From the IMG/VR virus record IMGVR_UViG_3300032245_001163: 64,000 bases of DNA; one strand, written 5' to 3'. Shown in pieces: positions 9,632 to 60,300 of this stretch (positions within the stretch are counted from its first letter, which is position 1; each line of letters starts with the position of its first letter). The notes below the pieces were generated by a model. That model made no database searches. It worked only from the letters and a program-made list of their open reading frames with translations, and was not told the DNA's origin. Made by a program: the position numbers and the translations under genes. Source of the DNA: a virus.

Positions 9632-10402
9632 TTATGCATCGTATCTGTTGATCTGCGCCAATGTGATATTGGTTTGTGCAGTACCAGACTTGATAGCAGT
9701 CTCGCCTTGATCAAAGAAGTTGGCCAAATAACGAATACGCTGAACAACTGAGGCAGCGTCATATGTATTACCGCCGGTCCAATCCAAAGCGTACTTGTTG
9801 GTAAGTTTGCTTACACGAGTGGTTGCACTGTCGCCAATGTCCATGGTAATGGTCATATTGCCAGCAGTCAATGAGGAATTAGCTTCGTTGCTGAGTGTGC
9901 AAATTCCCACCAATTGCACTGTGCCTGTGCCTGTGCCCACACCAGTGGCTGTGAAAATATCACCAATTACAACACTGCTGGTTGGGCCGCCGATTTCAGA
10001 CCAAGGTGTAGTGCCAGTGGTTAACACACGATATGTATTGCCGGCCACTGTTGATGTGGCATTGATTGAAGTCAATGCTGCCACTTTGTACTGATAAGCA
10101 CCTTTTTGTGTGATGATAAATCCGTCGTCTTCTGATCCGCCAGTAATGTACACGCGAATTTTCACTGTGGGGTAGTCAGCACCGGTTAGCACCATGGCTT
10201 GACCGGGCACAGTGTTTGAACCACCCACAACACCAAAGTATTGTGCATTGGTATATGTGGCAGGTTTTACTGGTGCGGTCAGTTGTCCAAAAATTGGATA
10301 TGCTGAATCCACTACAACAGGCACACCAAGGCCTGCAGAAGTGCTAGTACCGGTATCACCAGAACCAAGAGAGTATTGTTGAATTTTAAGAGGACGTCCC
10401 AT
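9632..10402 (-). CDS. Probable abundant virion protein (MGRPL... N-terminus, 256 aa)
   Basis: Has its own perfect late promoter, strong AAGGAG RBS and terminator; Gly/Thr-rich. Confidence 0.65.
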   Translation of the reverse strand: MGRPLKIQQYSLGSGDTGTSTSAGLGVPVVVDSAYPIFGQLTAPVKPATYTNAQYFGVVGGSNTVPGQAMVLTGADYPTVKIRVYITGGSEDDGFIITQKGAYQYKVAALTSINATSTVAGNTYRVLTTGTTPWSEIGGPTSSVVIGDIFTATGVGTGTGTVQLVGICTLSNEANSSLTAGNMTITMDIGDSATTRVSKLTNKYALDWTGGNTYDAASVVQRIRYLANFFDQGETAIKSGTAQTNITLAQINRYDA

Positions 10403-10418
10403 TTTGTTTTCTCCTTAA

Positions 10419-10489
10419 AGAAGTCCGATGCGAGTTCTAGTCGCTACGCGGCGGGTTAAACCGCATAAAACGCATTATTGCGTTGACTT
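10419..10489 (-). promoter_or_regulatory. Structured 5' leader (four-way junction) of the 256-aa gene
   Basis: Closing stem AAGTC/GACTT encloses three hairpins, between the late promoter and the RBS. Confidence 0.55.
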
Positions 10490-22175: not shown

Positions 22176-22517
22176 ATGGATTTATACACAATTTGGGCAG
22201 ACAAAGAAGGAGACATCTCAGATATTGACTGGGTCAACGGAATGAAAAGTTTCTTTGATCATCTAGTCGAAGAGGGCCGAATGGAAACCTATAGAATCAC
22301 ACGTTGCAAAATGGGGTTCCGTAGTATTGCAGACATGCCTGAATGGATGATCATCATGGAGTTCCGAGACATGGGCCAAATGGATAGTGCATTCAAACGT
22401 GTTGCTCCACTCAAAGGCGATCTCGAAACAAAACACAAAAGTTTCAATCAGTTTGTTAGTGGCAACATTCAACATGCACTGTTTAGAGACTGGCCAGATA
22501 CCAACTTAGACGATTAA
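22176..22517 (+). CDS. Small dimeric alpha/beta-barrel-like protein (DUF6614-like)
   Basis: GGAG RBS; YRITRCKMGF..MPEWMIIMEF.DMGQMDSAF pattern. Confidence 0.5.
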   Translation: MDLYTIWADKEGDISDIDWVNGMKSFFDHLVEEGRMETYRITRCKMGFRSIADMPEWMIIMEFRDMGQMDSAFKRVAPLKGDLETKHKSFNQFVSGNIQHALFRDWPDTNLDD

Positions 22518-22898
22518 AGATCTCTAACGAGATCTGTTGATTTCACTTCGTTCATCAACTGATTGTCTTCTAAGTATCATCTAGATACTGTGGTCACAAT
22601 TCACCGTATGCACGGTGAATTGAATGCATCATCTGAGTGACCGCAGTCATCTATTTTAAAGAGATTGTTGTTTCCAACACGGAGGCGGTTGACCGGTACC
22701 CCCTACTCTAGCTTCACATATCAACGGAACCCTAGTAACCCGAAATAGATCCAAGTCCTATGAGCAGGGGTTGCTTTTTCTCATTGCCCCAACCATTTGC
22801 TGCCTTAAGTTAACAGTTGCCTTTGACACCCAAGTCTGCACCGGGTATCGCACCGTTGCTCAATGGGGTTGGGTCAAACACCCAACACAGAGTCGTGA
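22518..22898 (-). ncRNA. Candidate large structured non-coding RNA (~380 nt), family not recognised
   Basis: The only long ORF-free gap in the window. At least 8 stems, including a GAAA-tetraloop hairpin (22666-22679), G-U-containing stems that favour the minus strand, and long-range pairings. Confidence 0.6.
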
Positions 22899-23327
22899 TT
22901 AAATTTTATCTTTGATGTGTGAGCCATGTACACGTACTTGTATATGGCCGTTGTAATAATCTGTTGATTCCAATACCTTCCTACTGAATTGTTCGCGGGC
23001 TTCAACATAACTGCATTCTGCCTTGCTTTTACAATAGTAAAGTATTTCTCTGGAGAAGTTTTCGGTGCCTAGTTTGATTACGTCTGCGGTCAATTCTGGG
23101 CTTGACCCATAGTACTCACGCCAGTCTGAATCGACTTTTGTTCGTATCTTTTTCTTCTTTTTGATGCCGTTCTTTTGATTTACTGTCTTGTACGTTGTTT
23201 TACTAAATTTCGCTAATTTTTTGCCTATGTACTTGCGTCCAGATAGATTATTTGTGATCTGATAAACAAATCCCACACATTCTTCGGGTAGTGTCTCAAC
23301 TGGGGTGTCTTGATAAAACCATGTCAT
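22899..23327 (-). CDS. Minimal GIY-YIG family nuclease (Seg-like catalytic domain only)
   Basis: GFVYQITNNLSGRKYIGKK, YYGSS, YVEAREQF and YYN motifs; Lys-rich insert; no C-terminal DNA-binding domain. Confidence 0.8.
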   Translation of the reverse strand: MTWFYQDTPVETLPEECVGFVYQITNNLSGRKYIGKKLAKFSKTTYKTVNQKNGIKKKKKIRTKVDSDWREYYGSSPELTADVIKLGTENFSREILYYCKSKAECSYVEAREQFSRKVLESTDYYNGHIQVRVHGSHIKDKI

Positions 23328-23369
23328 GTGCTTTTTGGGAAATGCCTTTCGTGTTATAGTTATGCTGCC

Positions 23370-24431
23370 TTAGTATAATTGGAGATTTTTCAAGAGATTT
23401 TGATTTTCGTATAACATGCCTAAATTGTAGCGGTTTTGCTGTTCGTTGTAGCGGCTTAGATAGTTTGATTCTTGCTGTCTGCCTGTATTTGTATAGTCGT
23501 TGCCCAGGCCAAAATGCACAACTCCTGTAGGTTTTAACCCCAGTCGCTCGCACCAATGACGCTGTTGATTTAGATATTTGTACACCATGTAGTCCACAGG
23601 AAACTGCTGTATTAGACTCATGGCCAAGCCAGCACTGAGCCGGTTGCAGATGTTTTCATCATTGCTCATCTGCATGGGATCGCTGGGTTTTTGTTTTAAC
23701 ATACGCACAGCAATCTTGGCGGTTTGCACAGGAAACGTTTTGCTGAGACTGAATGTGATTTCTTTGATGCAATCTGCACTCAGGTCAATGTTCACAACAT
23801 TGACACTGTTGGGCAAGTAGATAAAGTCCACCAACAGATCCACGCCTTGACGATTGCACTGTTCTACCAGCCACTTGAAACGTTCATGTTCTTGTCCGGT
23901 TAGTGCAAATGGCAGGCTGCATATACACGCATCGCCTGGCTGTATGTCAAAGTCATCGTCGATGTACTTCCAGTTGAATCCGGCCTTCTGCCAGATCTCC
24001 ATGTGCCACCAGTAATCGCCACGAAACACTCGCAGTCGTTTGTCTTTGTGCATCATGTACCAGTTCAGGAATGATTCTTGTGTGCCTTGTGAAAACCCCA
24101 CGTATTTGAACTGATCCAAGTTGTGCAATCTGTATGCAGTGCCAGACGCAATCCATTCAGGAAATGCTTCTTGAAACTCATCAACAATCCAACAGTTTCG
24201 CAAATGCTCACTCAAACTTAAACTGTTTACAAAATCAATCACTGTCTGATCTTTGATAGCATTGCCACTGCTGAATATGCTGTGGCCACGTGCTCGCACT
24301 TCCCAGAACTTGGAGTTCTTGGGGTAGGCCCACACAAACTCGCCAGGCGTGTCCAAGCAGTCTTCAGCACTGGCCTTGGCCAAAGCCCAACTGATTCGCC
24401 GTATTAGATTGATTTGTTCAGCAGTCTGCAT
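23370..24431 (-). CDS. PLP-dependent fold-type-I enzyme (aminotransferase-like), copy 2
   Basis: FSQGTQESF, LLVDFIY (PLP-binding Asp) and FSLSKTFPV (Schiff-base Lys). Confidence 0.8.
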   Translation of the reverse strand: MQTAEQINLIRRISWALAKASAEDCLDTPGEFVWAYPKNSKFWEVRARGHSIFSSGNAIKDQTVIDFVNSLSLSEHLRNCWIVDEFQEAFPEWIASGTAYRLHNLDQFKYVGFSQGTQESFLNWYMMHKDKRLRVFRGDYWWHMEIWQKAGFNWKYIDDDFDIQPGDACICSLPFALTGQEHERFKWLVEQCNRQGVDLLVDFIYLPNSVNVVNIDLSADCIKEITFSLSKTFPVQTAKIAVRMLKQKPSDPMQMSNDENICNRLSAGLAMSLIQQFPVDYMVYKYLNQQRHWCERLGLKPTGVVHFGLGNDYTNTGRQQESNYLSRYNEQQNRYNLGMLYENQNLLKNLQLY

Positions 24432-44800: not shown

Positions 44801-45341
44801 TTACTACACTGCTTATCAAAACTGGTTGCGTGATACCACAGGCACTGTGGCTCAGCCAGCATCGCCCACAATTGATCAACTGTCAACTGATTACCAGGCC
44901 TTGCAAGATTACAAAATGATCAGTGACAACATTGTGGTTAACTCAGTGGTATTCAAACCCTTGTTTGGTCCCAAGGCTGCACAAGAACTACGTGCCACAA
45001 TCAAAGTTATCCGTGCGCAAAACAGCACAGCCAGTACCAGCGAAATCAAAAGCAGTGTTTTAGCAGAAATGAACAATTATTTTTCAATTGACAAATGGAA
45101 TTTTGGCGATACTTTTTACTTCTCTGAGCTGGCAGCATACTTGCATAGACAACTAGGATCAATTATCAGTTCTGTGGTATTGGTTCCTCTGGACCAACAA
45201 AAGAGCTTTGGCGATCTGTATGAAATCCGCAGCCAGCCAAACGAAATTTTTGCCAATGGTGCAACCATTGACAATATCGATGTTATCGAAGCATTGACTA
45301 GTACCAACCTGCGTACTGCACCAGGCAGCGGAGTAATTTAA
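41865..45341 (+). CDS. gp6: Baseplate wedge subunit (gp6-like)
   Basis: DFETLR, ENYIDTAERRDSV.RLA, FGDG.F..IP and EIKQRAP..YYTQNRMVNGEDY motifs. Confidence 0.9.
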   Translation: MATTTRQTAIFGVEDWKQIYQTYREADFQSYDFETLRKSFIDYLRLYYPETFNDYIESSEFIALLDVMAFMGQALAFRTDLNTRENYIDTAERRDSVVRLANLVSYTAKRNAAAEGFLKVFNVTTTENVVDYNGVNLSNITVNWADPTNNDWQEQFTAIINAALVDSQKVGRPGNRQTVLGVDTAEYGINLVPGFLPVIPYTATVDGISMPFEATTSTSVGRDYVYEPAPVPNTVFNVLFRNDQLGFQSANTGYFFFFKQGILQNQDFNLSERIANRTVDINVEGVNNDDRWLFQLDNIGNISREWQYVENVYTAAEQRNNVLQPIYSVTSRANDQITMVFGDGVFSEIPVGIFRAYVRASNGLQYIINPEEMQNVVLPISYTDRNGNLQTITFTCGITRPVSNSQAREPIGEIKQRAPARYYTQNRMVNGEDYNLFPYTQYNSIIKSKALNRASIGTSRYLDLVDNTGKYSSTNTFSSDGGIWRQNILPTILFSYTNRNEIADIITNQVQPSIDGATVRQFYYSNFPRITSTTQPTGVAWLSGYTWNQSTTLANETTGYFRNTITSATWPDGTPIPVGETTNTMFKYVIPGSLIKFVPPTGYYFDRNNKLVQGTPMRADERTEIWASPQQIVGDGYNGGLGNLSSGAGPVTINNFVPSGAIVDTIIPLFVTDLPNTIEQQMAEQILLYRNFGLGYDSNGDITGTPYTWYLITSTNLDAYSQSNPATWSQQYAGNTSGANLDASWLIQFVVENQNYTITFRGLSYNFGSVLQTRFFFYEDQLVYDSRTGTIIKDFINVLAVNTQPNSTEPLPGDIYTTIIGQPVESDGYVDDFQVLVSYRDSDNDGVPDNPDFFDEIVGPATTAGPYVFLQQTVDFDNLQRYLLVEQGVVIYDYGTLDEIELAKTEWTPGQVFYAYEENAFYQLSISVTGVRTIVSVTGWIAKTGRQSLYFQYRHNSPLTNRIDPGSTNIIDLYVVTLSYYTAYQNWLRDTTGTVAQPASPTIDQLSTDYQALQDYKMISDNIVVNSVVFKPLFGPKAAQELRATIKVIRAQNSTASTSEIKSSVLAEMNNYFSIDKWNFGDTFYFSELAAYLHRQLGSIISSVVLVPLDQQKSFGDLYEIRSQPNEIFANGATIDNIDVIEALTSTNLRTAPGSGVI

Positions 45342-48300
45342 TGGCACGCACACGATCAGTTGATTTCCTACCAGAAATTTTTAGAACTCCTGTTAACAAA
45401 CAATTCTTAGCAGCCACTCTTGACCAAATGGTTCAAGAGCCCAAGTTTAAAAAGACACAGGGATTTATTGGCCGTACTGTGGGTCCAGGTGTTAATCCCA
45501 ATGACAGTTATGTTGTAGAGCCTGATAAAATTCGCCAAGAGTATCAATTAGAACCTGGCGTGATCAGTCTTGAACCTGACACACAAAATATCAAAAATGT
45601 CATCACTTATCCTGGCATGAACGACGCCATTGGATTTCAAGGGGGTGATCAGACTCGCGCAGATCAGTTGTATAACAGTGAGTACTATACCTGGGATCCT
45701 TTTGTTGACTATGATGCGTTTATTAATTTCAGCCAATATTTTTGGTTGCCCAGCGGCCCAGAAACAGTAGATGTAGCATCCATTGGCATACCAACCAATG
45801 ATAATTTTGTAGTCAATCGTGAAAATGGTGTTTACACATTTTCTGGTCTTAGCGGTAATAATCCCACAATTGATCTAGTTCGAGGTGGAAGCTACACGTT
45901 TCAAGTAGCGCAAAACGCCAAAGAAACTGTGAATTATCGTGTTACCAACAACGGTACCACGGCTTACCTGATTGATTTTCAAAACAATCCAACATTGACT
46001 TTGGCACGAGGCAACACTTATGTGTTCAATATTACCCTCAATGGTGTGTATCCTTTCTGGATCAAGACAGCATTGAGCCTAGGCACTGGTGATGCATACA
46101 ACTCAGGAGTGCTACGAAACGGCAGCAGTTTTGGTCTAGTTACATTTACTGTACCACAAGATGCTCCTGACACCCTGTACTATGTCAGCGAAAATCAAAC
46201 CAACTTGCGTGGCACCATTAATGTTATAGACGGCACCCCAGGCACTGGTCCAGGATTTTGGATTCAAACTTCGCCAGGAGTGGCGGGAGTGGTACCTACT
46301 ACCCCTAACCTTAGCAACAGAGATGTCTATGGCGTTACCAACAACGGTGAAGATCTTGGTATAGTAACATTTGATGTGCCACAAAAAACAGCGCAAGAAT
46401 TTTATTATAATCTCACCGACGTAGGTCCAATTGATTTATTAACTGAATTAAAATTCAATCAGATCAATAACCAACCTTTGGAACAGTTTATTACCACCTA
46501 TGGCGGAATTGATGGCACCACATATCTTGATGGTCGTACATTGGTGTTTACAAATACTATTGCAGATGCTGAAGATGGTGGCTGGGTTGAAACCACATTT
46601 TATGATCCGCTGCCTAGACTGGATTCATTCAACGGTGCAGTAGGAAGTTATGATTCTATCAATTTTGATCAATCCACTGAAGTACCATTGGCTGATCGAT
46701 ATCAAATATGGCAAATTGCCATAGTAAATCGCAATGGTATAGATTATATCAGTCTATCAAAAATTGCCAACGTTGATATCAACCAAAAGTTTACTATCAG
46801 TTATGGTAATACCTACAGCAATACCAGTTGGTACAAAATGCCCAACGGATACTTTCAACGTATTCCTTTGTTGACAGCATTGTTCAACGAACTGTATTAT
46901 CAAGATGGCACCGACCCAGAAATTTTTGGTAAAATTCGGCTGTTGGATCAAACTGAGACCAACACAATTTTTATCGATCAGATTATTGGACAAAAGAATT
47001 ATACCAGTCCCAATGGCGTGGCATTCACCAATGGACTCAAGGTGCGCTTCACTGGCGATGTGTTGCCAGTTTCTTACAGTTCAGGTACTACCACACTAAC
47101 CTGTACTGCCACCCAAGCAGGCAGCAACTACATCACATGTGGCTCGACTGCTGGATTGTACGAAGGTGAAGAAATTGTTTTTTCGGGCACAACTGCTGGC
47201 GGCATCATTGCTGGACAAAGCTATTACATCAAATCAATTGCATCTAATGGCATTCAATTTTCAATAGCCACAGTGGCCGATGGAGCAACATTTGAACTAA
47301 GCACTGCCACTGTGGCAGGATTTACAGCCGTGGCCATTGCCAACAATGAATATTATGTAGCAGGAGTTGGCACAGCAATTGAGCTGCTGCCAGTACGAAA
47401 CTTTATCACGCCTGAAACTTATGTGGTGGATGCTAGAGATAGTACCATTGCATCTGAACCAGGCGAAGTAGATTACCTCACAATCGATCGCGCCAGCAAA
47501 GATCTAAATGCATGGACACGCAGTAATCGTTGGTTCCATGTGGACGTGATTCAAGCTTCGGCCGCTTACAATGGTAATGTGGCCACACTAGACAACAACT
47601 ATAGAGCCAAGCGTCCAATTATCAACTTCAGACCCAACATTAGATTGTACAACATGGGTACCGAAGGCAAGCAGCCAGTTGACATCATTGACTTTTCAGA
47701 AACAGACGCACTCAGCAACATTGAAGGCAGTACAGGATATTCAGTGGATGGATATACTTTTGTCAATGGTACACGAGTAATTTTTGCTGCTGATGCAGAT
47801 CCCGAAGTGCGTGATAAAATCTATATTGTGCAATTTATCACACCTGACAGTGTGGAACCATTGATTACGCAACCAATTATCAATCTTGTGTTGGCCAGCG
47901 ATGGCGTTGTGTTGCTTGATCAAAGTGTGGTATGTCTTGAAGGAACCACACAAAAAGGCGTGTCATTCTGGTACAACGGTGTAGAATGGACTGAGGCACA
48001 ACAGAAAACTGGAGTGCAACAAGCACCACTGTTTAACGTGTATGATCTAGCTGGTATCAGTTTTGGAGACCGAGCCAAATATCCATCTAGTACATTCATT
48101 GGCAGCAAATTGTTTAGCTATGCCGTGGGAGACACTGGCATACTAGATCCTATTTTGCAATTCCCACTGCAATATTTGAACATCAACAACGTTGGTGATA
48201 TTGTATTTGAGAACAACTTGTACAAAGATACATTCTTGTATGTGCAAGACAACGTATCAATCACGTCTGACATCAGTTCAGGTGTGGCTCGAGAATATGT

Positions 48301-51300
48301 CGATCGTACTGTGTTTGGCAAACTCATTGGTTGGCAAACTGCGGCTGCAACTAGCCAGCAATACCAACAATTTAAATTTACATATACTGGACAAACACTG
48401 AAAGTTGATGTTGCAGTTGGTACAAACACTGTATTGCCCCCAATAAAAATCTATGTCAGCTCAGACTTTTTAATGCCTGACGAATACAGTTATATTGTAG
48501 GCACTAACAGCACAACTATTACATTGCTCAACACTTACTTGCCCACAGACATCATTGAAGTCTTGGTGTTGAGTGATCAAACCAGTGCTACTGCATTTTA
48601 TCAAGTTCCGATTAATTTACAGAACAATCCGCTGAATACCAACAGTCCCAGTTTTACTCTGGGTACAATTCGCACACATTACGAAAGCATTTGTGAAAAC
48701 TTGTTAACACTGTCTGGACCAGTCAACGGTGCCAACAACACCAGAGACCTGGGCAATTTAGTACCATATGGCGCAACCATACTGCAACAGAGTTCTCCAT
48801 TGACCCTGGCTGGATATTTCTTGCGCAGTGAAAAATACAACATATTCTCAAGCCTGCAATACAACAGCAACGAATATCTAAAATTCAAAGGTCAGATGCT
48901 GAACACTGCAATTCAGCAAGTGGTTCAATATCAAACTGCTGGTGAAATTTTAGATATTGCCATGGCTGATATTACTTTGGGTCGCGTTGAATCGCAGCCA
49001 TTTTATTGGAGTGATATGATACCTGCAGGTGCAGTGTATCAAACCACAACATACACCATATCAAATACCACCAACGACACATTTGATACTATCAATGTAT
49101 ACAACTATACATCAGCCAACTATTTGGGGTTGAATGTGTATCTGAACGGTACAATTCTTACCAGAAGTGTTGATTATGTGGTGGCCACAGACGGGCCTCG
49201 AATTGTTGTATTGGCCACACTGACTCTAGGTGATATACTAACATTAAAAGAATATTCTGCCACTTATGGTAGTTTTGTACCAAATACTCCTACCAAATTG
49301 GGATTGTATCCTGCATTCCGTCCTGAAATTATCACACAAAAAACCAGTGCAGGCACACAGACTGTTATTGTGGGACACGACGGAAGCATTACTCGCACTT
49401 TTGGTGATATCCGCGATGACGTGTTGTTGGAATTTGAAACCAGAATATTCAACAACTTGAAACTGGATGGTAATCCTGTGCCCATTAGTATTGCAGAAGT
49501 ATTGCCTGGACAATTTAGAACCACTGGCTACAGCATAGACGACGTTAACAACATCCTGGCCACAGACTTTTTGAGTTATGTGGCCTGGAACAAGCTGGAT
49601 TACAAAACACAAGATTATGTTGCTGCCAATGAATTTTCTTGGAACTACAGTGGCAGCCAAAGCAAGTTAGATAATGAGCCATTGCCCGGAGCCTGGCGCG
49701 GCATTTATCGCTACTACTATGACACACAGCAACCTGAGGAAACTCCTTGGGAAATGTTGGGATTTTCCATCCGTCCTGACTGGTGGGATCTTGTGTACGG
49801 TCCAGGACCTTACACACAAGACAACTTGGTGTTGTGGGATGATTTAGAAGCAGGTTATGTGGCAGACCCTGTTGCTCCTTATTACTTGCCTGAATATGCA
49901 AGACCTGGTCTTACCAAAGTAATACCAACAGGTACTGAAGGGGAATTGTTGAGTCCGTTTGATTCAGTGGTTGGTACTTACAATGATTCTACATTCCGCA
50001 AGAGTTGGAGTGTGGGCGATGGCGGCCCTGTGGAAGCATCATGGTGGAACAGCAGTGCATACCCATTTGCTGTTATGAGATTGTTGGCATTAACTCGTCC
50101 TGCTAAGTTCTTTGCGCTGTTTGCTGATAGAGATTTGTACAAGTTTGACACAGACCTCAATCAATATTTGTACAACAATCGTTATCGCCTCAATGCCAAT
50201 GATTTGGAAATCTATGGCAATGGTGTCAGCAAAGCCAGCTACATTGACTGGATTGTGGACTTCAACCGTCAAAGCGGTGTGGACAGCACAGCTGATCTCA
50301 CAGCTGATCTTGGTGCACTGGACGTTAGATTGTGCTATAGAATGGCCAGTTTCTCAGACAAACAGTACATTAAGATTTACACTGAGAAATCCAGTCCCAA
50401 TTCAACCAACACCACTTTCTTAATCCCTGATGAAAGTTATGATCTAGTTTTGTATAAAAATCAACCGTTTGATCGTGCCAGCTATTCAGCAGTGGTGATA
50501 CAAAAAGTTGCAGGTGGATATGCAGTATTTGGTTATAGCACATCACAACCGTATTTTAACATAATTCAAAGTCAGTACGCTGGACGTTTGCAAACCTACA
50601 GTGCTGGTGGTATTACGGTGCAAGTGCCCACATTCTATTCAAACACTATTACACAAATTCCGTATGGCTACATTTTTGCCAGCGAAACTGCGGTGTCTGA
50701 CTTTTTGCTGAGTTATGGACAATACTTAGAGCGTCAAGGACTAGTGTTTGACAATCGTGTCAATGGCTATGAACTGAACTGGGGACAAATGGTCAATGAA
50801 TTCCTGTACTGGAGCCAACAAGGCTGGGACGAAAATGCCTTGATCAATTTGAATCCACTGGCATTTAGACTCAGTATTTCTCGTGAGCAGGCTGTGGTAG
50901 ACAGTATTGCCGCACAAACATCTGACAATATATTGTTGGACCAAAATCGCAAAGAATTGCCCACACGCAATCTCGTTATTACACGTTTGGATAATACATT
51001 TACAGCTGAACCTGCTACTGACCAGACGCTGAGTTATATTGATTTAAAATACACTGCTTACGAGCACATGATTGTGTTGAACAACGCCAGTGTGTTTGGT
51101 GATTTGATTTATCAACCTGTTACAGGCGCTCGACAAAGTCGACTGAATTTAATTGCAGTGACCACAACTGAGTGGAATGGCTCAGTGGATGCACAAGGCT
51201 TTATTTTAAATCAAGACAATATTGAAGAATGGAATTCATATACCACGTATACCAAAGGACAAATTGTCAAGTACAAAGGTGCTTATTGGTCAGCGGCCAA

Positions 51301-54300
51301 AATTGTGCAACCTACAGCAGTGTTCAATGCCAACGACTGGCTGGCCAGCGACTACACACAAATTGAATTGGGACTGTTGCCTAACCTGGCCAACAAAGCT
51401 GACCAATTACAAAACAGCTACAATATCAACACAGCCAATCTTGAAACAGACAACGATTTGTTGAGCTATGGATTGATTGGGTTCCGTCCTCGTCAATATA
51501 TGACATCACTGAACCTTGACGATGTTAGTCAGTTGAATGTGTATCGTCAATTCCTTGGCAGCAAAGGCACCATACTCAGTGCTGAACTATTTGCGCAGGC
51601 CAATCTTGGCAAGGAATCTGCTGACTACAGCATTTATGAAAATTGGGCAGTACAACGTGCAGTATACGGTGCCAACGCTAACCGTAGTTTCTTCCAGCTG
51701 CGATTGAATCGTGCCTTGTTGGATGCAAACCCTAGTTTGATCCAAATCATTAATCCTCAAGAAACCAGTCAAGCCGATCAAACTGTTCTAGTTTCAGATA
51801 TTTGGAAACAGAGCTATAATATTACTTCGCCTGATATATTACCTGTTACTACCACACTTCCAACAGACATTGCATTGCCCACAGCAGGTTATGTAAATCT
51901 TGACGACGTTGATATTACAGTGTTTGACATTGAAAACACTGACAGTCTAGCTGCAAACATCAATTCTATTGGAGTTGGTACAAATGTATGGGTGGCAAAA
52001 ATCAATGCCTATGATTGGGCTATTTACAGAACTCAATCAGTTCCAGGCACTATCAACCATGTGTGCGATAACTTGGATGGCACTAGTTTGGTTATATTCT
52101 CAGGCCAACACGGGCTTGCAGTCAATGACAAATTGATCATACGATTCTTTGATACAGAAGTAAATGGCGTATACACAGTGCTCAATATAGTGAGCCTAGA
52201 CACAATTACTGTGGCGTTTAGTTTCACAGGTGATCGCACAGTAGTCAATGGCACTGGGCTAGGGTTTACCTTGCAAACTCAACGTGTGGCTCAAGCCAGC
52301 GATGTATTGAATCTGCCTTATGCCAATACCATTGAACCAGGTGCCAAAGTCTGGGTAGACGACAACGGCAGTGGGCTATGGAGTGTGATACAAAAACAAG
52401 AAGTGTTCACTGAATTGTTGGGATTGAGTCCGTCAGAAGTTGACCAGGGCGAACAATTTGGTAGTTCTGTGGCACAAGCACAAAACAGATATGCTGCCTT
52501 GGTGGGCAGCCCACGATATCGATTCCCTGTGGGTGCTACACTGTGGAATATCGCCAACACTTACAATGAATTTTCAATCGTGTATGTCAGCGATCCTTTA
52601 CAAACAGAATTTTTCTATGCGCCAGCACCTGTACCGCAAGGCATTAGCATTTACAACACTGCGTACTGGACTCCATACCCATTAGCAAACTTGCCACGAC
52701 GTGGCGGTGTTTATGTGTATGTCAAGAGCGACAGCAACATATACACGCCAGTTAGTGCGTTGGCGCCTAACGATGCTGTGTTGAGTTTAGACGTATTGGA
52801 TGTCAGTGGTGGACCTTATGATGGAGAAACCGCAGCACGTAGCTACGGTACCTCAGTAGACTTCGGTAATCAAACTTGGGCCGTGGCTGGAGCTCCGGGC
52901 AGTTTAGGATCAACTGGCGCAGTTGACAATGGGTATGCTGTGGTAATTTACAAAGATCCACAATTGGCTGCACCAGGCAACATACCTTACGGACAGTGGC
53001 AGTTGCTGACTACCCCAGGCTCTACCAGTGCTGCAGAAGAATTTGGTTATAGTGTAGCAATCAGCCAGGATGAACGTTGGATGTACATTGGCGCACCAGG
53101 AGTTAATTCTGTGTATGCGTTTGGTCGTGTGGACTGGGAGTTGCAGAATCTCAAAGCAGTGGGCGATGGACAAACCACTGATTACTTCATCGGCGATGTG
53201 ATCAAAATTGACGCAAACACTCAACTCACAGTCAGTGTGGATGGTGATGAACAAATTTTAGGAACAGACTATGTTGTAGTCAATTCGTTGACCATGGTGG
53301 TGTTTACCACACCTCCTGAAGAAGGCAATGCCATTGAGATTATCAGAACCAGTCGCAAAATTCTTGACTATCAAGCCACATACAATCTGCAACAATCTGC
53401 AACATCAGCTGCGGGCACAGGTGCAAAATTCACAGTGGTGCTTCAACGCAATGAAGTTGGACAACCAGCTGCTGGCAAAGGTCTAGTATCAGTTACAACA
53501 GGCGGTGCAAATTACGCAGTGTCTGACACTATAACTTTAAATGCTGCCAGTTTTGGTGGTGCACTGGCCAATGGCAATATTACTCTTACAGTAACCAGCA
53601 TTGGCGCAGGTGGGGCAGTCACTGGATTTTCTACTGCTTATTCTCCAACAGTGTTGGTCAGCACATTCTCATTGAACGAATATTTGTTCAGCGCCGACAA
53701 CATTTACAGTTTCACTTTGTTGGTAGATGGAGTAATACAACGTCCCAACATTGATTATACATTCAACAATATCACTGGTGATGTAACATTTGCGGCAGCA
53801 TCTAATCCTCCTGCTGGCGCCAGCATTCTTGTACGTGCTGAAGGATATTTTGAATATTCAAGCACAATCACATACTCTGGATCACAGGCAGGTGATAGAT
53901 TTGGACACACTGTTAGTACCAGTACTGATGGTCGACAAGTGTTGATTGGCGCACCATACACCACAGAATCCAGCCAGTCAGAAGCTGGCACAGTATACGT
54001 GTTTGATCGTGATGTACAAAGATTTATCTACGGTACTGAAGGGTCAACCGTGGCATTCACAGTGCTGGGATCTGTAGTAGAACCAGTTAGTGTGTTGGTC
54101 AATGATACTTTCTTTGTAAATGAATTGAGTGCAGCGCCTGACCAAACTGACACATTCTCTGTAAGCGGCAATACCATTACCATTCTTGGGGATTTGCAAG
54201 TAGGTGATATCATTGAAATTGAAACCAATGGTTTCCAATTTGTTCAATCTGTTACACAAAACACAGTAGAAGAGTTTTCTAACTTTGGATATGCCACAGA

Positions 54301-57300
54301 TTTGTGCAGTTATAATTGCAGTTTGTATGTTGGAGCACCAAACAGCAGTTTGCAACAATTAAAAGGCGGTGTGGTTGAACGTCATATCAATCAAAGTCGC
54401 GCATACGGCATCACCACTGCCACAGTTGCCAATCCCAACTTAGACAGTGGCGATACCATTAGAATCAACAATCAAGATGTGGTAGTTCCGAATGCCTGGA
54501 GCAATGCTTCATCTTATGCTGCAAATACCATTGTATACAACTACAGTGCTGCTACTACCATTACCACAATATATTTGAGTTTGCAAAGTGTTCCTGCAGG
54601 AACAGCATTGTCCAACACTTCTTATTGGAAAACAATTACATCGACCACTGTTGCTGCCAGTGTAGACGTCCGGGCATTGGCTGCACAAATCAATGTAGAT
54701 GTGCCCAATGTTCAGGCCACTGTAGATGCAGACGGGTATTTGACTGTAGCCGTAAAAAATTCTGCAGCAGCAGCAGTAGGCAATAAACTAAACGTTGCGC
54801 CAGGATCTGTTGGTACTGCTTTTGCTGATCTTGGGTTTGAAACTTATGTGTTTACTCAAACAATCAAGAGCCCATACCCTGCAGACTACGCAGGATTTGG
54901 CAGCAGTTTAAGCATTGAAGACAGTGCTATTAATCTAGTGGTAGGTGCTCCTCGTGGTACGTTGTACTTGATCACAATCTTTGATCTCAACAATACAGTG
55001 TTTGATGAAGATGCCACAGACTTCTACGATCAAACTGTACAGAGCGGTGCAGTTTATACCTATGATTTGTTGGCCAGCGCCAGCCCATCTGTTAGCAGCC
55101 CAGACAAATTTGTGTTTGGTCAACAGATTGACAATCCCGATGTGGTATCATATGATCAATATGGCACAGCAGTAAACTACACTGATGGAGTGTTGTTCAC
55201 CGGCGCACCAGGCAATGAATTTGAAGACAGCACTCTTACTGCAAATTATGGACGAGTGTTTGTCAGTGTCAATGAAAATCGTGTGCCTTCGTGGACAGTA
55301 TTGCGTGAACAAAAACCTGTGGTAGATGTAAGATTGTTGAACTCTGTTTACTCTTATGACAGACTCACATCAGCTACCACACAGTATTACGACTTCTTTA
55401 ATCCATTACAAGGTAAAATTCTTGGCGCAGCCAGACAAAACTTAGATTACATTGGTGCAGTGGACCCTGCCAGCTATAACGTTGGTCCCACAGGTGTACG
55501 TGGCACCACATGGGGACAAAGTCGTGTGGGCGAAACTTGGTGGGATACCAGCACAGTGAGATTCATTGACCCCAACCAAGATGACATTGTGTACGCCAGC
55601 CGTCGTTGGGGACAAGTGTTTCCGGGTAGCACAGTAGATGTTTATCAGTGGATTGTGAGCACAACACCTCCTGCAGATTACACAGGCGAAGGTGTTCCCT
55701 TAAACATCACTAATTATGTGGTGAACACTGTATTGAGTGCTGATGGTATTTTTAACACTGAATATTATTTCTGGGTGCGTGGCATAACTGCTACTGCCAC
55801 ACAAAAAGGCAAAACATTGCCAGTGAGCACAGTAGCCAACTATATTGAAAATCCCAGAGCATCGGGTATAACTTATCTTGCACCCATTGATGCCAGCACC
55901 GTTGCACTGTACAATGCTGGTGATTACATCAATGCACAAGACACTATCATCAGCATTGAGTTTGACAAAGAACTCACCGAAGACAATGTTCACGTTGAAT
56001 ACGAACTAGTAGCACAAGACCGTGAAGATGCATTTATCAGTAAAAACTTATACCGCAAAATGCAAGACAGTTTTTGTGGAGTTGATACCAACGGTAGTTT
56101 AGTACCTGACATCAATCTTGGCGTAGCAGAGCGATATGGTGTGCAGTTCCGTCCACGCCAGAGCATGTTTGTGGATAGATTTGCAGCATTAAGAAACTAT
56201 CTAACTCGTGCCAACTCAGTGCTGGCAAGATATCCTATTGCGGAAAGCCGTCAGTTTGTATTGTTGAACAGCAGCGAACCTGAGCCACCAGCAGGGTCAG
56301 GTGCATGGAACAAACGTGTAGAAAACTTAGAGATATTAGAGTTCCAGAATATCTATACTGTATCTTTGGGCTACAAATATCTAGTAGTCAGCGATTCCAG
56401 CAATCGAGGACTATGGACAATTTACACAGTTGAAGAAAGAGAAACCACCAGTGGTACCATAAGAGTATTGCAGTTGACTCAAGTGCAAAATTATGACACC
56501 ACACAATATTGGAGTTATATCAACTGGTATTTGCCCGGGTACAACAGCAGCAGTAAAATCATTGCCGAAGTTCCAAATGTAGCTGGATTGGATACCTTGA
56601 ATGTTGCGGTTGGCAGTAGCGTAAAAGTCACAGCCAACAGCCTAGGTAAATTTGAAATTTATCTGCGTGGTGCCACAGGATTTGAACGTGTGGGACTAGA
56701 AGATGGTACCATTGAATTTTCTGCGCAACTGTGGGATTATCAATTGGGACGTTTTGGATTCGACGTTGAAGTCTTTGATGCACAATACTACGATCAAGAA
56801 CCAGTGATCGAAACACGCAAGATCATACAGGCCATCAATGAAGAGTTGTTCATCGATGACTTGGCAATTGAACGCAATCGTCAATTAACATCAATGTTTA
56901 ACTTTGTACTCAGCGAATTCGCGGCTCCTGAATGGTTGATTAAAACTTCCTTGATTGATGTAGAACACAGAATTCGTAGTTTGACAAAGTTCCAGAACTA
57001 CAGTCGCGACAACCAAGAGTTTGTGCTTGATTACATTCAGGAAGTCAAACCTTATCATGTTCAAGTTCGGGAATTTAATCTTCGATACAACGGTTTTGAT
57101 CAGTGGTTTGGGGATATGACTGACTTTGATTTGCCAGCATATTACAATACCACTTTGCAGGTTCCTCAATTTACCAGTCCTATTTTACTACCGTACGCTC
57201 ACAGTACTTCGTTTAATTCTGAAACAAACAACCTCAGCGACTTGCCATCTAATTCCACTGTGTGGAGCTCTTGGCCATACAGTCAATGGTACGGCAATTA

Positions 57301-60300
57301 CTTGTTGAGACTGGATTCTGTTGAACTGATCGAAACAGGATCAGGCTACACTGAGCCGCCTGTAGTAGAAATTACTCCTAACCCCAATGACCCTGCACCA
57401 GAAGTTCTTGCGCAGGCCGTTGCAGTGTTAAACAGCATAGGCCAAGTAGTGGGTGTAAGTGTCACTGTCAGTGGCTCAGGATATCGCTCTACTCCAACAG
57501 TTACATTCATTGGCGGCAATGGATCTGGCGCAGTGGCGTATCCACGCATGACCAACGATGTTATACGCCAATTCCGCACTACCATTAGGTATGATAGATT
57601 CCAGTATCAAACTAGCATTTTAACTTGGAGCAGCGAAGGCACTTACGAAAATGGCACATTGGTACGATACAACAACCGTGTGTGGTCAGCACAAAATGCT
57701 GACGGAAGTTCAGCAGTGGTAGGGCCAACATTTGATTTAGAAAATTGGCAATTGGTTGATGCAGCCACATACACTTATCCTGGCACCACAGTGGCCACCG
57801 GTCTAACCGGTGTTGACCGTACCATGGGCTTGTATGTGCCTGGAGCCAACGAATTTGGATTAGAATTACCATTACTGGTTGATGGTGTTGATTACCCTGG
57901 TGTGCAAGTTTGGGGCGATTATTTTACTGGCACACAGACACTAGATGCCAACTATCAAAGCGAATTTGCTGACATATATCTTGGTGAACGATTCTCAGAT
58001 ATCAATGTTGATGGCGGTGAATTCATTGGTCCATACGAAGGTCATGCGCCTGAAGAACTGGTCAATGGTAGCGAATACGACACACTGGACATGCGCATTT
58101 ATACTCGCCCAGGTGCAGATTGGCAAAATGACGGACATGGATTCCAAATTGGCACAATTCGTTATACATTTGAGCCAGGTATCTCTCTTACCTACAGTTG
58201 GGCAAACATTGTTGAACACCCATTTAATATAGTTGTGTCTAACTTGTCCACTGGACGAGTGTTGGCCAGAGATATTGATTATTCTGTTAATTGGGTAAAC
58301 AACACAATTACCATTGACAACAACGTCGATTCAGGCAACATCATCAGTATAGATGTTTATGAAATTGGTGGCGGAAGTCAGCTGTTCAAAGGCAACTACG
58401 TTGGCGCAGATGTAATTGCAGACAACAATGCAATAATTGTTCCAGTTGGGTACAAAGAAATTGTGGGCGTCTATGTGTTTGTAAATGGGGAATTGGTAGC
58501 TATCCCAGAACTCGAAGCATACACAGACAGCCAAGTTTATGATGTAAATGACACATATCAAGCAATTGATATAGTATTCAACGACAATCAACTAGCAGTG
58601 ACCAATACAATAAGTGGGTATAACTTAATCACTTGTAATAGCACCAGTGCATTGACCATTGGTCAACCAATAGTGTTTTCTGGCACAGTATTTGGAGGAA
58701 TTGTTGCAAACCAAGAATACTATGTACAAAGTATTCTCAATGGAACACAATTCTATATAACAGCAGTGGCAGGATCTGCCACAGTGGTGTCGTTGACCAC
58801 AGCATCTGGACTGATGACTGGATCACCCAAAGGCACATATTATCGTGCTGTGCAAACAGTGCCTCCGGGTGCTTTGTTAACCGACACTACTTATTGGTTG
58901 CCATTTGTTCCTTCTGTTCGCAGCAAGATCACAATTACTGCTAATATCACAGCAACCGATGAAATTGCAGTGTTGATTCTTGGAAATGCAACCAGTATCA
59001 CAGTAACTGACACACAGGCACTGGGAAATGCCATTGTGTTGTTGGGTTCAACTGCATCATTGAGTGTGGGACAAACTGTTACTTTCTCAGGTTATAGCTT
59101 GGGCGGCGTGCTGACCGGAACCACTTACCAGATACTCAGCATCATTGACGATTCAATGAGTGCTATTACTATTACCGAAGATGGAACCACAGAAGTTTCC
59201 TTGATCGACGATGAAGCAACTTGGGCTGGTGAATTAGTGGCAAAATTTGTGCCTACAAATTATCAAAGTTGGAGCACTCCAGTCATTGAAACATTTGTTG
59301 TAGATCAAGACATCATTGACAATAGCGCAGTAGAAATAGAAAATGCACCCACTTTCAGCAATGCAGCCAACATGATTGTCATGGTCAATGGGTATAGAAT
59401 ACTTGGTCCAAGTTGTATAGAATGGATTGGTGATGGTACCACTGCTAGTTTTGGGTTGCCTCAGCGCATGGGCACCAGTTTCTCACAATCTATCATTGAT
59501 GCTGTCAATGATATTCAAGTCTACGTAGACGGTGTGCTACAAAAACAATCATTTGGTGCTGAAACCGGTGTATACAGTGTTACAAACTGGGATGGTAGTA
59601 ATACTCCTGGTCGACAAGTTGTGTTTGATTCAGTCCCAGCTGATGGCACAGTTATTGTAATTGCAGTGAGCACCATTGCTGATTGCGAGTTTGCATACAA
59701 TCCTGCTCAACCAGGATTCACATCTACTTTGCAAATCTCCAGCACACTCAATCTAGGAGACATTGTACAAGTTATTACTTGGAATGACACACAACAACAA
59801 AATGCATTGACATTGACATTTGCTGGGCCAGTGCAGACAGGTACCACCACTTATCAAGCATACGATACCACAGACTATGACAGTCCCACACTGAACGATC
59901 CAACTCAACCATTACCTGGAGAGTTTGCCTATGAAGTTGGCACATCAAACCCTGTAAATGACTTTGATCTGTTGCGCACCAACATTGATGCCAGCAGACT
60001 ATGGGTTACATTAGATGGCTACAGATTGTTTGAAGGCAGTGATTACACTATCCAAGGACAATACTTGATACTGGCACAAGGTGCTATTGGTGCAGCCCAA
60101 GAATTAATCGTTACTGAATTTACTAATTCTATTGTACCTGAAGCTGTGGCATTCCGTATATTCCAAGACATGCGAGGAGTACAAGCCACTTACAGAATGA
60201 CCTTGGCCACAACTACACAAGTGGCACAGCCTGTCAGCGCCACAGCTGATATCATTTATGTGGAAAATGCAGCAGCACTAAGCGAACCAGATTTACCTGC

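What the first reader, a model, noticed from the sequence alone, without database searches (positions are those of the whole stretch)
22518..23327. Minimal GIY-YIG nuclease followed directly by a ~380-nt highly structured non-coding element: candidate phage nuclease-RNA system
Seen: in a window where genes abut or overlap, 22518-22898 is ORF-free and packed with stems. Local stems are at 22868-22886, 22825-22849 (G-U pairs only on the minus strand), 22681-22703, a TGTTG-GAAA-CAACA tetraloop hairpin at 22666-22679, an 11-bp perfect hairpin at 22597-22622 nested in 22588-22597/22637-22646, and terminal hairpins at 22536-22559 and 22518-22535. Long-range pairs are 22853-58/22722-27 and 22889-93/22705-09, and AGATGA recurs three times. 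The element starts at the stop codon of a 142-aa GIY-YIG that lacks the usual DNA-binding domains but has a Lys-rich insert (KNGIKKKKKIRTK). Established: GIY-YIG homing nucleases normally get their specificity from appended domains. Inference: the RNA may be a scaffold, guide or substrate for the nuclease, or an independent ribozyme-like RNA. A DNA-level role (origin, cruciform or packaging site) remains possible.
Basis: partly seen in the sequence, partly recalled or inferred. Interest (0 to 1): 0.85.

Follow-up and report, generated by a model that had tools for sequence, protein, structure and literature searches.

The report
Twin-box phage RNA beside nuclease gene
The gene-free stretch behind a small nuclease gene of this uncultured giant T4-like lake phage encodes a real, knotted non-coding RNA of about 330 bases that carries the same 7-letter word twice; it is an uncatalogued sister of the orphan Polynucleobacter-1 RNA, and the nuclease looks like a neighbour rather than a partner.

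Summary
Window 22568-22898 (minus strand) is a genuine structured RNA gene. Across 42 relatives, 99.4% of cells in 70 proposed pairs are paired. Twenty-eight pairs show compensatory double changes, including an 8-bp pseudoknot. Many G-U pairs fix the strand.

Rfam has no match here. The RNA's 3' domain is homologous to the uncatalogued 3' part of RNAs whose 5' third is Rfam Polynucleobacter-1 (RF01718). At least three RNA types (A = this window, B, C) occupy the same slot in near-identical phage backgrounds.

The oddest feature is two 7-nt words (AGAUGAU at 22628-22634 and 22576-22582). They are identical to each other in 135 of 138 independently sampled RNAs, yet take at least 13 different sequences. 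They covary only with each other.

The nuclease-RNA system reading is not supported:
- Identical GIY-YIG proteins sit next to different RNA types and words.
- The GIY-YIG family occurs in 421 cultured phages. Three were inspected and none has the RNA.
- Bacterial contigs carry the RNA without the nuclease.

Function is unknown. My best guess is an autonomous RNA whose two words are read as a matched pair. This scan has already reported the same family many times on other DNA.

The parts
22899..23327 (-). 142-aa stand-alone GIY-YIG nuclease gene (SegE-type catalytic domain only, with a basic insert KNGIKKKKKIRTK)
   Evidence: Pfam PF19835, E 1.9e-32, covering residues 3-129. Catalytic-type residues are invariant in 33 homologues: Y22, Y33, G35, R93, E109, N126. 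AlphaFold pLDDT 93.2. The best PDB fold match is the I-TevI catalytic domain 1mk0 (probability 0.99, E 0.056).
22568..22898 (-). Core of the type A twin-box RNA (about 331 nt)
   Evidence: 42-sequence alignment A1. 70 pairs, 99.4% of cells paired, 28 pairs with double changes, 0 of 500 shuffles reach this, and slid controls give 32-48% paired. No Rfam hit at E<=10.
22868..22886 (-). P1 hairpin
   Evidence: Helix 1: 6 of 7 pairs with changes on both sides.
22829..22867 (-). P2 (CCCA/UGGG) enclosing the P3 hairpin (22838-22859, loop UGCGAUAC)
   Evidence: Helices 2 and 3. P3 has 5 of 6 pairs with double changes (AACGG/CCGGU, AUAUG/CAUAU, AUUGG/CCAAU, GCUGG/CCAGC).
22767..22790 (-). P4 hairpin (GGGG.../...CCCC)
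   Evidence: Helices 4 and 5. Pair 131-158 occurs as GC 20, UA 11, CG 9.
22737..22757 (-). P5 hairpin whose loop AUCUAUU (22744-22750) forms pseudoknot PK1
   Evidence: Helix 6 (G-U rich, valid on the minus strand only) and helix 7.
22649..22655 (-). 3' strand of pseudoknot PK1 (AAUAGAU; holds the third 'AGAUGA')
   Evidence: Helix 7: 8 pairs, 5 with double changes (AUCUAAUA/UAUUAGAU, AUUUAUC/GAUAAAU, AUCUUG/CAAGAU).
22705..22736 (-). P6, a nearly invariant irregular hairpin (ACUAGGGUUCCGUUGAUAUGUGAAGCUAGAGU)
   Evidence: Helix 8: 99.6% paired, but 7 of 11 pairs never vary, so the structure is only weakly tested.
22681..22703 (-). H1 hairpin GGGGGUACCGGUCAACCGCCUCC, shared with type B RNAs
   Evidence: Helices 9 and 10. 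The motif GGTACCGGNCAACCGCCTC retrieves more than 120 viral contigs.
22667..22678 (-). H2 GAAA-tetraloop hairpin
   Evidence: Helix 11: 4 of 4 pairs with double changes. It is replaced by longer inserts in L029 and L078.
22570..22661 (-). Twin-box 3' domain (word 1 loop, hairpin H3, UGAC, word 2)
   Evidence: Covariance model R1, built from 40 type A and B relatives, scores 81.6 bits, E 6e-14. It is the only hit in the window. It also hits type C loci taken from the unbiased first set at E 2.5e-4 to 2.6e-3.
22628..22634 (-). Word 1 (AGAUGAU), preceded by ACUC, in a loop closed by a short variable stem
   Evidence: Closing stem: mean best stem 2.89 against 2.48 after permutation (maximum 2.69).
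22599..22620 (-). H3 hairpin between the two words
   Evidence: Helix 12. Across types the stems differ but stay complementary (UUCACCG/CGGUGAA, UUUGCCC/GGGCAAA, GGAACC/GGUUCC).
22576..22582 (-). Word 2 (AGAUGAU), preceded by AUCU, with no closing stem
   Evidence: Flanks pair no better than permuted flanks (2.17 against 2.15).
22518..22559 (.). Two terminator-type hairpins shared by the converging transcription units
   Evidence: Terminator-like hit on the + strand at 22518-22535. The hairpins keep their pairing through sequence change in relatives. In relatives with genes inserted after DUF6614, the hairpins stay with the RNA.

Best explanation
SHOWN:
- This is an autonomous non-coding RNA gene, the type A member of a large family of 'twin-box' RNAs of uncultured aquatic T4-like phages. 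Related records are estimated at about 350 kb.
- It is read on the minus strand as the last element of the gp46/47...GIY-YIG transcription unit and ends at the terminator hairpins shared with the converging tail-gene unit.
- It folds into a pseudoknotted multi-helix core.
- Its conserved 3' domain displays one 7-nt word twice: once in a hairpin loop after ACUC, and once in an open stretch after AUCU, with a hairpin between them.

INFERRED:
- The RNA acts on its own, not as guide, scaffold or substrate of the GIY-YIG nuclease. The nuclease is a long-standing neighbour.
- The two words are a matched pair of recognition elements that must stay alike, because one and the same reader meets both.
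- No genetically linked complementary sequence exists, and each switch of word needs only two substitutions.
- The exchangeable 5' domains (types A, B, C) would then be alternative modules on a common working 3' domain.
For: RNA gene and strand:
- 99.4% of cells paired, 28 of 70 pairs with double changes, 0 of 500 shuffles reach this.
- G-U-dominated pairs exist only on the minus strand.
- There is no ORF, and indels are not in multiples of three.

Family:
- Model R1 hits the window at 81.6 bits and also types B and C.
- The nhmmer profile of type A hits type B loci over positions ~200-330 at E 1e-8 to 1e-11.
- RF01718 scores 60-118 bits on the 5' part of type B loci.
- There is one copy per record in five large records.

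Twin words:
- Identical in 188 of 194 RNAs and in 135 of 138 RNAs sampled on a motif 50 nt upstream.
- At least 13 words are seen.
- For every variable position the best covarying column is its twin (0.77-1.27 bits; next best <=0.5).
- At least 22 and 25 changes of word occur on the RNA trees of types A and B.

No linked partner:
- No complement within 700 nt upstream or 400 nt downstream of word 1, nor within the 530-nt RNA region even allowing G-U pairs.
- None in the 64-kb window.
- In 621 kb from six records bearing five words, only the boxes themselves track the word.

Independence from the nuclease.
Against: - No transcript data exist, so the ends, abundance and timing of the RNA are unknown.
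- GIY-YIG adjacency is strikingly conserved (87 of 119 loci, down to about 51% protein identity), which still hints at some functional or selfish link.
- A like-with-like contact of seven mixed bases has no natural precedent that I know of.
- An external reader cannot be searched for here: the host is unknown and only 25-43% of each phage genome was covered.
- Recombination could move both words together and inflate the count of changes.
- A protein reader is not formally excluded.
Confidence: 0.55

Rival explanations
1. The GIY-YIG gene is a selfish (Seg-type) homing endonuclease that sits next to the RNA gene because a conserved RNA gene is a good cleavage target. The link is parasitic, not functional, and double-strand-break repair drives the swapping of RNA types. 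This rival concerns the linkage and is compatible with the best explanation of the RNA itself.
For: - The domain is SegE-type.
- RNA types A, B and C are exchanged exactly between the GIY-YIG stop and the terminators in backgrounds about 90% identical at the DNA level.
- Extra small ORFs are inserted on either side of the RNA in relatives, as expected at a recombination hot spot.
- From my own knowledge: T4 SegB lies in the tRNA gene cluster and cleaves tRNA-gene DNA of related phages.
Against: - The gene is nearly universal, not sporadic, among relatives (about 70 of 80 loci).
- It is found in 421 cultured phages. In the three records inspected it sits in other contexts.
- It has no DNA-binding domain (142 aa).
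- No allele without the gene but with an intact target was seen.
Confidence: 0.15
2. The element is a cis-acting 3' untranslated structure of the upstream operon (a stabiliser, a processing signal or a regulator of GIY-YIG expression), not a trans-acting RNA.
For: - It starts at the stop codon of whichever ORF lies upstream, with no room for a separate promoter in many relatives.
- It ends at terminators.
- Rfam's source paper scored Polynucleobacter-1 as a possible cis-regulator (PMC2864571).
Against: - 330-470 nt with a pseudoknot and nearly invariant unpaired stretches is far more than known stabilisers need.
- In bacterial contigs the RNA stands alone, about 190 nt from a divergently read gene.
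- The upstream gene varies among relatives (GIY-YIG, a QSregVF_b protein, others).
- A weak sigma-70-like site at 22932-22903 could start the RNA itself, although it is not above chance.
Confidence: 0.12
3. One reading: the RNA is the guide or scaffold of an RNA-dependent GIY-YIG nuclease.
For: - The gene and the RNA are directly adjacent in most loci.
- The nuclease lacks a DNA-binding domain and has a basic insert.
- Variable words next to a conserved 3' domain superficially recall a guide plus a scaffold.
Against: - The protein does not covary with RNA type or word.
- The protein family is common without the RNA, and the RNA occurs without the protein.
- Genes of 1-2 kb are inserted between the two in several relatives.
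- The words are only 7 nt long and are duplicated.
- From my own knowledge: stand-alone GIY-YIG domains can work without RNA, for example T4 endonuclease II.
Confidence: 0.05
4. The words act at the DNA level or as copy-choice sites. They could be a pair of recombination-type sites whose central 7 bp must match. Alternatively they could be take-off and landing sites for a polymerase that jumps or rolls around the unit between them, as in nidovirus TRS elements, retroviral R repeats or the DRT2 template.
For: Identity without any constraint on the sequence itself is the hallmark of such sites (my own knowledge). The spacing of 50-75 nt with a hairpin in between is constant.
Against: - No recombinase, reverse transcriptase or RNA-dependent polymerase was noticed among the neighbours that were examined.
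- There are no inverted binding arms around the words.
- The unit length is not a multiple of three, so there is no repeat-encoded ORF (residues 1, 2, 0 = 47, 41, 31).
- The locus is a convergent junction, not origin-like.
- The rest of the element clearly evolves under RNA pairing rules including G-U.
Confidence: 0.06

Closest known systems
Polynucleobacter-1 RNA motif (Rfam RF01718; Weinberg et al. 2010, Genome Biol 11:R31, PMC2864571)
   Same: - The genomic slot is the same. Additional file 1 of the paper says most examples lie downstream of the GOS11034 gene family, which resembles P-SSM2 gene 218. Here RF01718-positive phage RNAs follow the same GIY-YIG family.
- RF01718-bearing RNAs continue into the same twin-box 3' domain as the window RNA.
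- The flank of the Polynucleobacter chromosome copy in the paper's alignment shows twin words AGCGAAA.
- It is likewise found only in uncultured freshwater or estuarine DNA, with unknown function.
   Different: - RF01718 models 141 nt, which form the 5' domain of type B only.
- The window's 5' two-thirds (P1-P6, PK1) give no RF01718 hit even at E<=10, and I could not align them to it.
- The shared 3' domain and the twin words are not part of the Rfam family.
Large ornate bacterial and phage ncRNAs of unknown function (GOLLD, ROOL, HEARO, OLE, raiA; from my own knowledge)
   Same: Size class (330-470 nt), a complex pseudoknotted fold, nearly invariant unpaired stretches, association with phages, and discovery by comparative genomics.
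   Different: There is no sequence or structure match to any of their Rfam models. None of them is known to carry a pair of identical, freely varying words.
RNA-guided nucleases with a 3'-flanking RNA (TnpB/IscB omega RNA = HEARO; from my own knowledge)
   Same: A small nuclease gene is followed directly by a structured RNA of a few hundred nt.
   Different: Co-occurrence is not obligate, the scaffold does not co-evolve with the protein, no guide of useful length exists, and GIY-YIG is not a known RNA-guided fold.
T4 seg genes beside conserved RNA genes (SegB in the tRNA cluster; from my own knowledge)
   Same: A free-standing GIY-YIG gene of the Seg type lies beside a conserved structured-RNA gene in a T4-like genome. 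The surrounding DNA is mosaic.
   Different: Here the protein is the catalytic domain only and is almost fixed in the lineage. Homing has not been tested.

Membership tests
Polynucleobacter-1 RNA (RF01718) | Match to the Rfam covariance model at or above the gathering score (37 bits) | tested here: not met
   No RF01718 hit in window 22300-23500 even at E<=10, nor in the whole window at gathering threshold. The same search gives 60-118 bits on type B loci.
Polynucleobacter-1 RNA (RF01718) | Location downstream of the GOS11034 / P-SSM2_218-like gene family | tested here: inconclusive
   The window RNA follows a GIY-YIG gene whose homologues precede RF01718-positive RNAs and occur in cyanophages. 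I did not compare it directly with GOS11034 or with P-SSM2 gene 218.
Twin-box RNA superfamily (informal; types A, B, C) | Homologous 3' domain: word 1 loop, hairpin, UGAC, word 2 | tested here: met
   Model R1 scores 81.6 bits, E 6e-14, at 22570-22661, full length 1-94. L001, a near-copy of the window, was in the seed alignment, so the score is partly by construction.
Twin-box RNA superfamily (informal; types A, B, C) | Two identical 7-mers following ACUC and AUCU | tested here: met
   AGAUGAU at 22628-22634 and at 22576-22582.
RNA-guided nuclease systems | Obligate co-occurrence and co-evolution of the nuclease with its RNA scaffold | tested here: not met
   identical proteins with different RNA types; protein without RNA; RNA without protein.
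RNA-guided nuclease systems | A variable guide segment long enough to specify a target (about 12-20 nt or more) | tested here: not met
   The only freely varying conserved-position segments are the two 7-nt words.
Group I intron carrying a GIY-YIG gene | Match to the group I intron model, and flanking exons of a host gene | tested here: not met
   No Rfam hit. The element lies between converging genes and is followed by terminators, with no downstream exon.
GIY-YIG nuclease, SegE type (PF19835) | Domain match with conserved GIY, YIG, Arg, Glu and Asn positions | tested here: met
   E 1.9e-32. Y22, Y33, G35, R93, E109 and N126 are invariant in 33 homologues. The fold is nearest to the I-TevI catalytic domain, with a weak E of 0.056 and probability 0.99.
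GIY-YIG homing endonuclease (Seg or I-TevI type) | An appended DNA-binding domain, sporadic distribution, and cleavage of endonuclease-free alleles | tested here: not met
   The protein is 142 aa with the domain covering residues 3-129. The 120 best-scoring homologues listed are 142-194 aa, within a search limited to 78-249 aa; longer fused forms were not searched for. The gene is present in about 70 of 80 related loci. Cleavage cannot be tested with these tools.

The most novel reading that the evidence does not exclude
The two words contact each other directly, base by base and like with like (A with A, G with G, U with U, C with C). This would form a short parallel-stranded clamp held in register by the intervening hairpin. 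Such a contact would explain three observations:
- each position covaries only with its twin;
- any base is allowed as long as both copies agree;
- no complementary partner exists anywhere nearby.

It would be a kind of RNA tertiary element, and a kind of covariation signal (identity rather than complementarity), that structure-prediction and motif-finding tools do not look for.
Probability: 0.1. Interest if true: 0.85.

Novelty: new variant of a known kind. Interest (0 to 1): 0.6.

Why it matters
New large, intricately folded non-coding RNAs are rare and have often turned out to be ribozymes, riboswitches or RNP cores. This family is abundant in uncultured aquatic T4-like phages.

Only a third of one of its forms is catalogued, and it has no known function. 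Its twin words show covariation by identity instead of complementarity. No standard RNA model explains that signal, and current covariation tools would miss it.

Conversely, the attractive idea of an RNA-guided GIY-YIG nuclease can be set aside for now.

Tried and rejected
1. Known RNA family: Rfam at gathering threshold on the whole window, and at E<=10 on the region, gave nothing here. There are no tRNA or tmRNA genes.
2. Group I intron with an internal GIY-YIG gene: no model hit and no exons.
3. Decayed C-terminal half of a longer Seg protein: no frame, indels not in threes, and pairing-type covariation instead.
4. Mini-ORF from the AUG in word 1 to the UGA of UGAC. It looked in frame in three examples, but across 119 RNAs the stop falls anywhere and the word-to-word distance mod 3 is 47/41/31.
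5. RNAalifold helix GCUYAU with word 1: no covariation, with C-A mismatch in 10 of 25 A-state RNAs.
6. An internal partner of the words: no exact 6-mer complement within 700 nt upstream or 400 nt downstream of word 1, no consistent 7-mer partner with G-U allowed inside the 530-nt RNA region, and no third covarying column.
7. Antiparallel pairing of word 1 with word 2: position 1 does not covary with position 7 of the twin.
8. A partner elsewhere in the phage. The complement with purine flank occurs only at the boxes in the 64-kb window. In six records (621 kb, five words) no other homologous site tracks the word, in either sense or complement.
10. Cultured relatives: no blastn match of type A, B or C RNA in 50,697 phage records.
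11. Resemblances to the RNase P CR-IV sequence, C/D boxes, DnaA boxes, the Shine-Dalgarno sequence and anticodon loops were considered by eye. All were dropped because the words vary freely.
12. Twin-box pattern hits in bacterial genomes: most of the 46 are at chance level (about 130 expected). Only those with the hairpin and RF01718 were kept.
Full report
WHAT IS THERE

The finding lies at a convergent junction of a T4-like phage. On the + strand a gp26-like baseplate-hub gene (PHROG 150) and three small genes end at 22517, the last being a DUF6614 gene at 22176-22517. On the - strand an operon ends with a 353-aa gene and a 142-aa GIY-YIG gene at 22899-23327. Earlier notes of this scan place gp55, gp47 and gp46 in that operon. 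The 381 nt between the two stop codons hold no ORF over 43 aa. No whole genome is held for the window. Related viral records of 81-148 kb are rated 23-43% complete, so the phages are about 350 kb.

IS THE STRUCTURE REAL?

Yes.
- The region folds better than dinucleotide shuffles: minus strand -123.3 kcal/mol, z -3.73; plus strand z -2.49.
- Eighty related loci were fetched with the DUF6614 protein. About fifty carry the element at 80-99% identity.
- A 42-sequence alignment of the core (A1, window 22568-22898, minus strand) gave an RNAalifold structure with 24 compensated pairs.
- After removing helices that relatives do not support and adding a pseudoknot seen by eye, I counted a 70-pair structure. 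In it 99.4% of cells are standard pairs and 28 pairs have changes on both sides. None of 500 shuffles reaches any of the five measures. Sliding the partners by 1-3 columns drops pairing to 32-48%.
- Seven pairs are G-U or U-G in 24 to 42 of 42 sequences. These would be A-C on the other strand, so the RNA is on the minus strand, the strand of the GIY-YIG gene.
- The pseudoknot (22744-22750 with 22649-22655) has 5 of 8 pairs with double changes.
- The first 50 nt (22518-22567) are two terminator-type hairpins that keep pairing through sequence change.
Its stem 22825-22849, the nested helix and both long-range pairs are not (details in the observation check).

WHAT FAMILY IS IT?

Rfam has nothing here, even at E<=10. 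Relatives showed that the slot between the GIY-YIG stop and the terminators is filled by at least three different RNAs in backgrounds whose flanking genes are about 90% identical:
- Type A: the window.
- Type B.
- Type C.

RF01718 scores 60-118 bits on the 5' 140-150 nt of type B loci but does not hit types A or C.

Types A and B share their 3' 130 nt (nhmmer E 1e-8 to 1e-11). A covariance model of the last ~94 nt, built from 40 type A and B sequences (A2, R1), finds the window once (22570-22661, 81.6 bits). It also finds type C loci of the unbiased first set (E 2.5e-4 to 2.6e-3) and bacterial copies. It finds nothing in three cultured phages.

The source paper (PMC2864571, additional file 1) says three things. 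Polynucleobacter-1 mostly lies downstream of gene family GOS11034, which resembles P-SSM2 gene 218. Its 3' half is not always detected. It was absent from sequenced phages. The window RNA is therefore a sister form. It has the same uncatalogued working 3' domain and a different 5' domain.

THE TWIN WORDS

- The 7 nt after ACUC (22628-22634) and the 7 nt after AUCU (22576-22582) are both AGAUGAU.
- A pattern scan for two variants of this arrangement returned over 120 viral contigs, against roughly 13 expected by chance on my rough estimate of the collection's size. In 118 of 119 the free position agreed between the two copies.
- Across 194 RNAs the 7-mers are identical in 188, and the few differences are at the last position.
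- In a sample chosen on a motif 50 nt upstream, and so blind to the words, 135 of 138 pairs are identical, with ten different words.
- Types A and C add ACAUGAA/U/G and AGACGAA. The Polynucleobacter chromosome copy in the 2010 alignment has AGCGAAA twice.
- In separate alignments of 79 type A and 57 type B RNAs, the best covarying column for every variable word position is its twin (0.77-1.27 bits). The runner-up is at 0.5 or less.
- On trees built from the rest of the RNA the word changes at least 22 and 25 times. Recombination may inflate this count.
- A second, looser repeat (UGAC before each word) changes in parallel in some lineages.
- Word 1 sits in a loop closed by a short covarying stem. 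Word 2 has no such stem.

WHO READS THE WORDS?

I found no answer. These candidates were excluded:
- A complementary segment within 700 nt upstream or 400 nt downstream, or inside the 530-nt RNA region with G-U allowed.
- The RNAalifold helix with GCUYAU.
- Antiparallel pairing of the two words (no 1-7' covariation).
- A small ORF.
- A repeat-encoded ORF.
- A complement elsewhere in the 64-kb window.
- Any homologous site, sense or complement, that tracks the word in 621 kb from six records bearing five different words.
- The GIY-YIG protein.

Two possibilities remain. One is a reader outside the phage DNA covered. The other is a direct like-with-like contact between the two words, which would need only two substitutions per switch, as an ordinary base pair does.

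THE NUCLEASE

- The 142-aa protein is a complete SegE-type GIY-YIG catalytic domain and nothing else.
- Its catalytic-type residues are invariant in 33 homologues down to 38% identity. The basic insert is conserved in charge.
- The model is confident (pLDDT 93.2) and nearest to the I-TevI catalytic domain.
- It occurs in 421 cultured phage records (cyanomyoviruses, Melnitz, phiM12, ACP17 and others), usually labelled 'NAD synthetase'.
- In the three records inspected it is followed by protein genes, with no twin-box RNA.
- Conversely, contigs binned into Methylococcales MAGs (up to 228 kb) carry a type B RNA beside a divergent small basic protein, tRNA genes, and NYN and TIR genes, with no GIY-YIG. 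A short Polynucleobacter MAG contig carries a twin-box match without GIY-YIG, and the paper's alignment includes a Polynucleobacter chromosome copy.
- In several phage relatives 1-2 kb of genes separate the nuclease from the RNA.
- Proteins identical over the aligned residues precede type A and type C RNAs.

Adjacency is nevertheless the rule: 87 of 119 loci, down to about 51% protein identity.

HOW IT MOST LIKELY WORKS

Shown: an RNA gene with a conserved, pseudoknotted fold, at the end of a transcription unit, carrying two matched words.

Inferred: it acts independently of the nuclease. The 3' domain with its matched words is the working part. The 5' domains are exchangeable modules.

The conserved adjacency is best explained either by old synteny or by a Seg-like selfish gene parked beside a conserved RNA gene, which would also explain the cassette swapping. 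I put 0.55 on the autonomous matched-pair reading, 0.15 on the homing explanation of the linkage, 0.12 on a purely cis-acting 3' UTR element, 0.06 on DNA-level or copy-choice sites, and 0.05 on an RNA-dependent nuclease.

NOVELTY AND PRIOR WORK

One third of one form of this family has been in Rfam since 2010 as an orphan motif. The type A form, the shared 3' domain and the twin words are not catalogued, and the only paper found is the 2010 survey. Within this scan the family has already been reported many times on other genomes, with the same conclusions. I reached the structure, the types and the twin words from the sequences before reading those notes. I took from them the pointer to RF01718, which I then tested.

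New here, as far as those notes show:
- The demonstration that identical nucleases accompany different RNA types and words.
- The whole-record search for word-tracking sites.
- The rejection of reading-frame and antiparallel models.
- The loop-versus-open setting of the two words.

LIMITS
- No expression data.
- Host unknown.
- Only partial phage genomes were covered.
- Model R1 was seeded with a near-copy of the window.
- Tree counts ignore recombination.
- Statements about T4 SegB, endonuclease II and other large ncRNAs rest on my own knowledge.

Noticed in passing
window 10400-10485 (-): Rfam freshwater-2 RNA (RF02980), 73.8 bits against a gathering score of 49.9, full length. It is the only Rfam hit in the window and lies just upstream of a minus-strand gene ending at 10402.
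   Followed up: no
window 45341-60862 (+): A single ORF of 5173 aa, preceded by ORFs of 1158, 466, 500 and 901 aa on the same strand. It is very large for a phage protein.
   Followed up: no
L021:6796-7044 (-), L024:1305-1562 (-), and relatives L010, L035, L039, L074: The RNA locus is an insertion hot spot. Small ORFs sit between GIY-YIG and the RNA in some relatives: an 83-aa QSregVF_b/PF12843 protein in L021 and L067, and an unassigned 86-aa protein in L024, L036 and L061. These ORFs run about 18 nt into the conserved 5' leader of the type C RNA. Elsewhere, 0.5-1.7 kb of genes lie between DUF6614 and the RNA.
   Followed up: partly
L226:2631-7227 (Methylococcales MAG contig of 228 kb); also L204, L206, L207, L209: Bacterial-bin copies of the type B RNA lie beside a divergently read 138-aa basic, proline-rich protein (33-35% identical between contigs), tRNA genes, a NYN-domain protein and a CAP12/Pycsar-type TIR protein. 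This looks like an island or integrated element. Whether these contigs are truly chromosomal was not checked.
   Followed up: partly
window 22899-23327 and GenBank phage records: This GIY-YIG family is labelled 'NAD synthetase' in PHROG 447 and in many GenBank cyanophage and rhizobiophage records. The label is almost certainly a propagated mis-annotation, because the domain is SegE-type GIY-YIG.
   Followed up: partly
window 22903-22932 (-): A sigma-70-like site (TGTACA, 18 nt, TAAAAT) lies inside the last codons of the GIY-YIG gene and would start transcription at the first bases of the RNA. It was the only such site in the scanned region, but fewer sites were found than expected in shuffles, so it is not significant.
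   Followed up: no
window 22646-22649 and 22593-22596 (-): A second, looser twin: UGAC precedes each word at about 11-15 nt. In some lineages both copies change together, to UGGC/UGGU in six sampled RNAs and to CGA in L324.
   Followed up: partly
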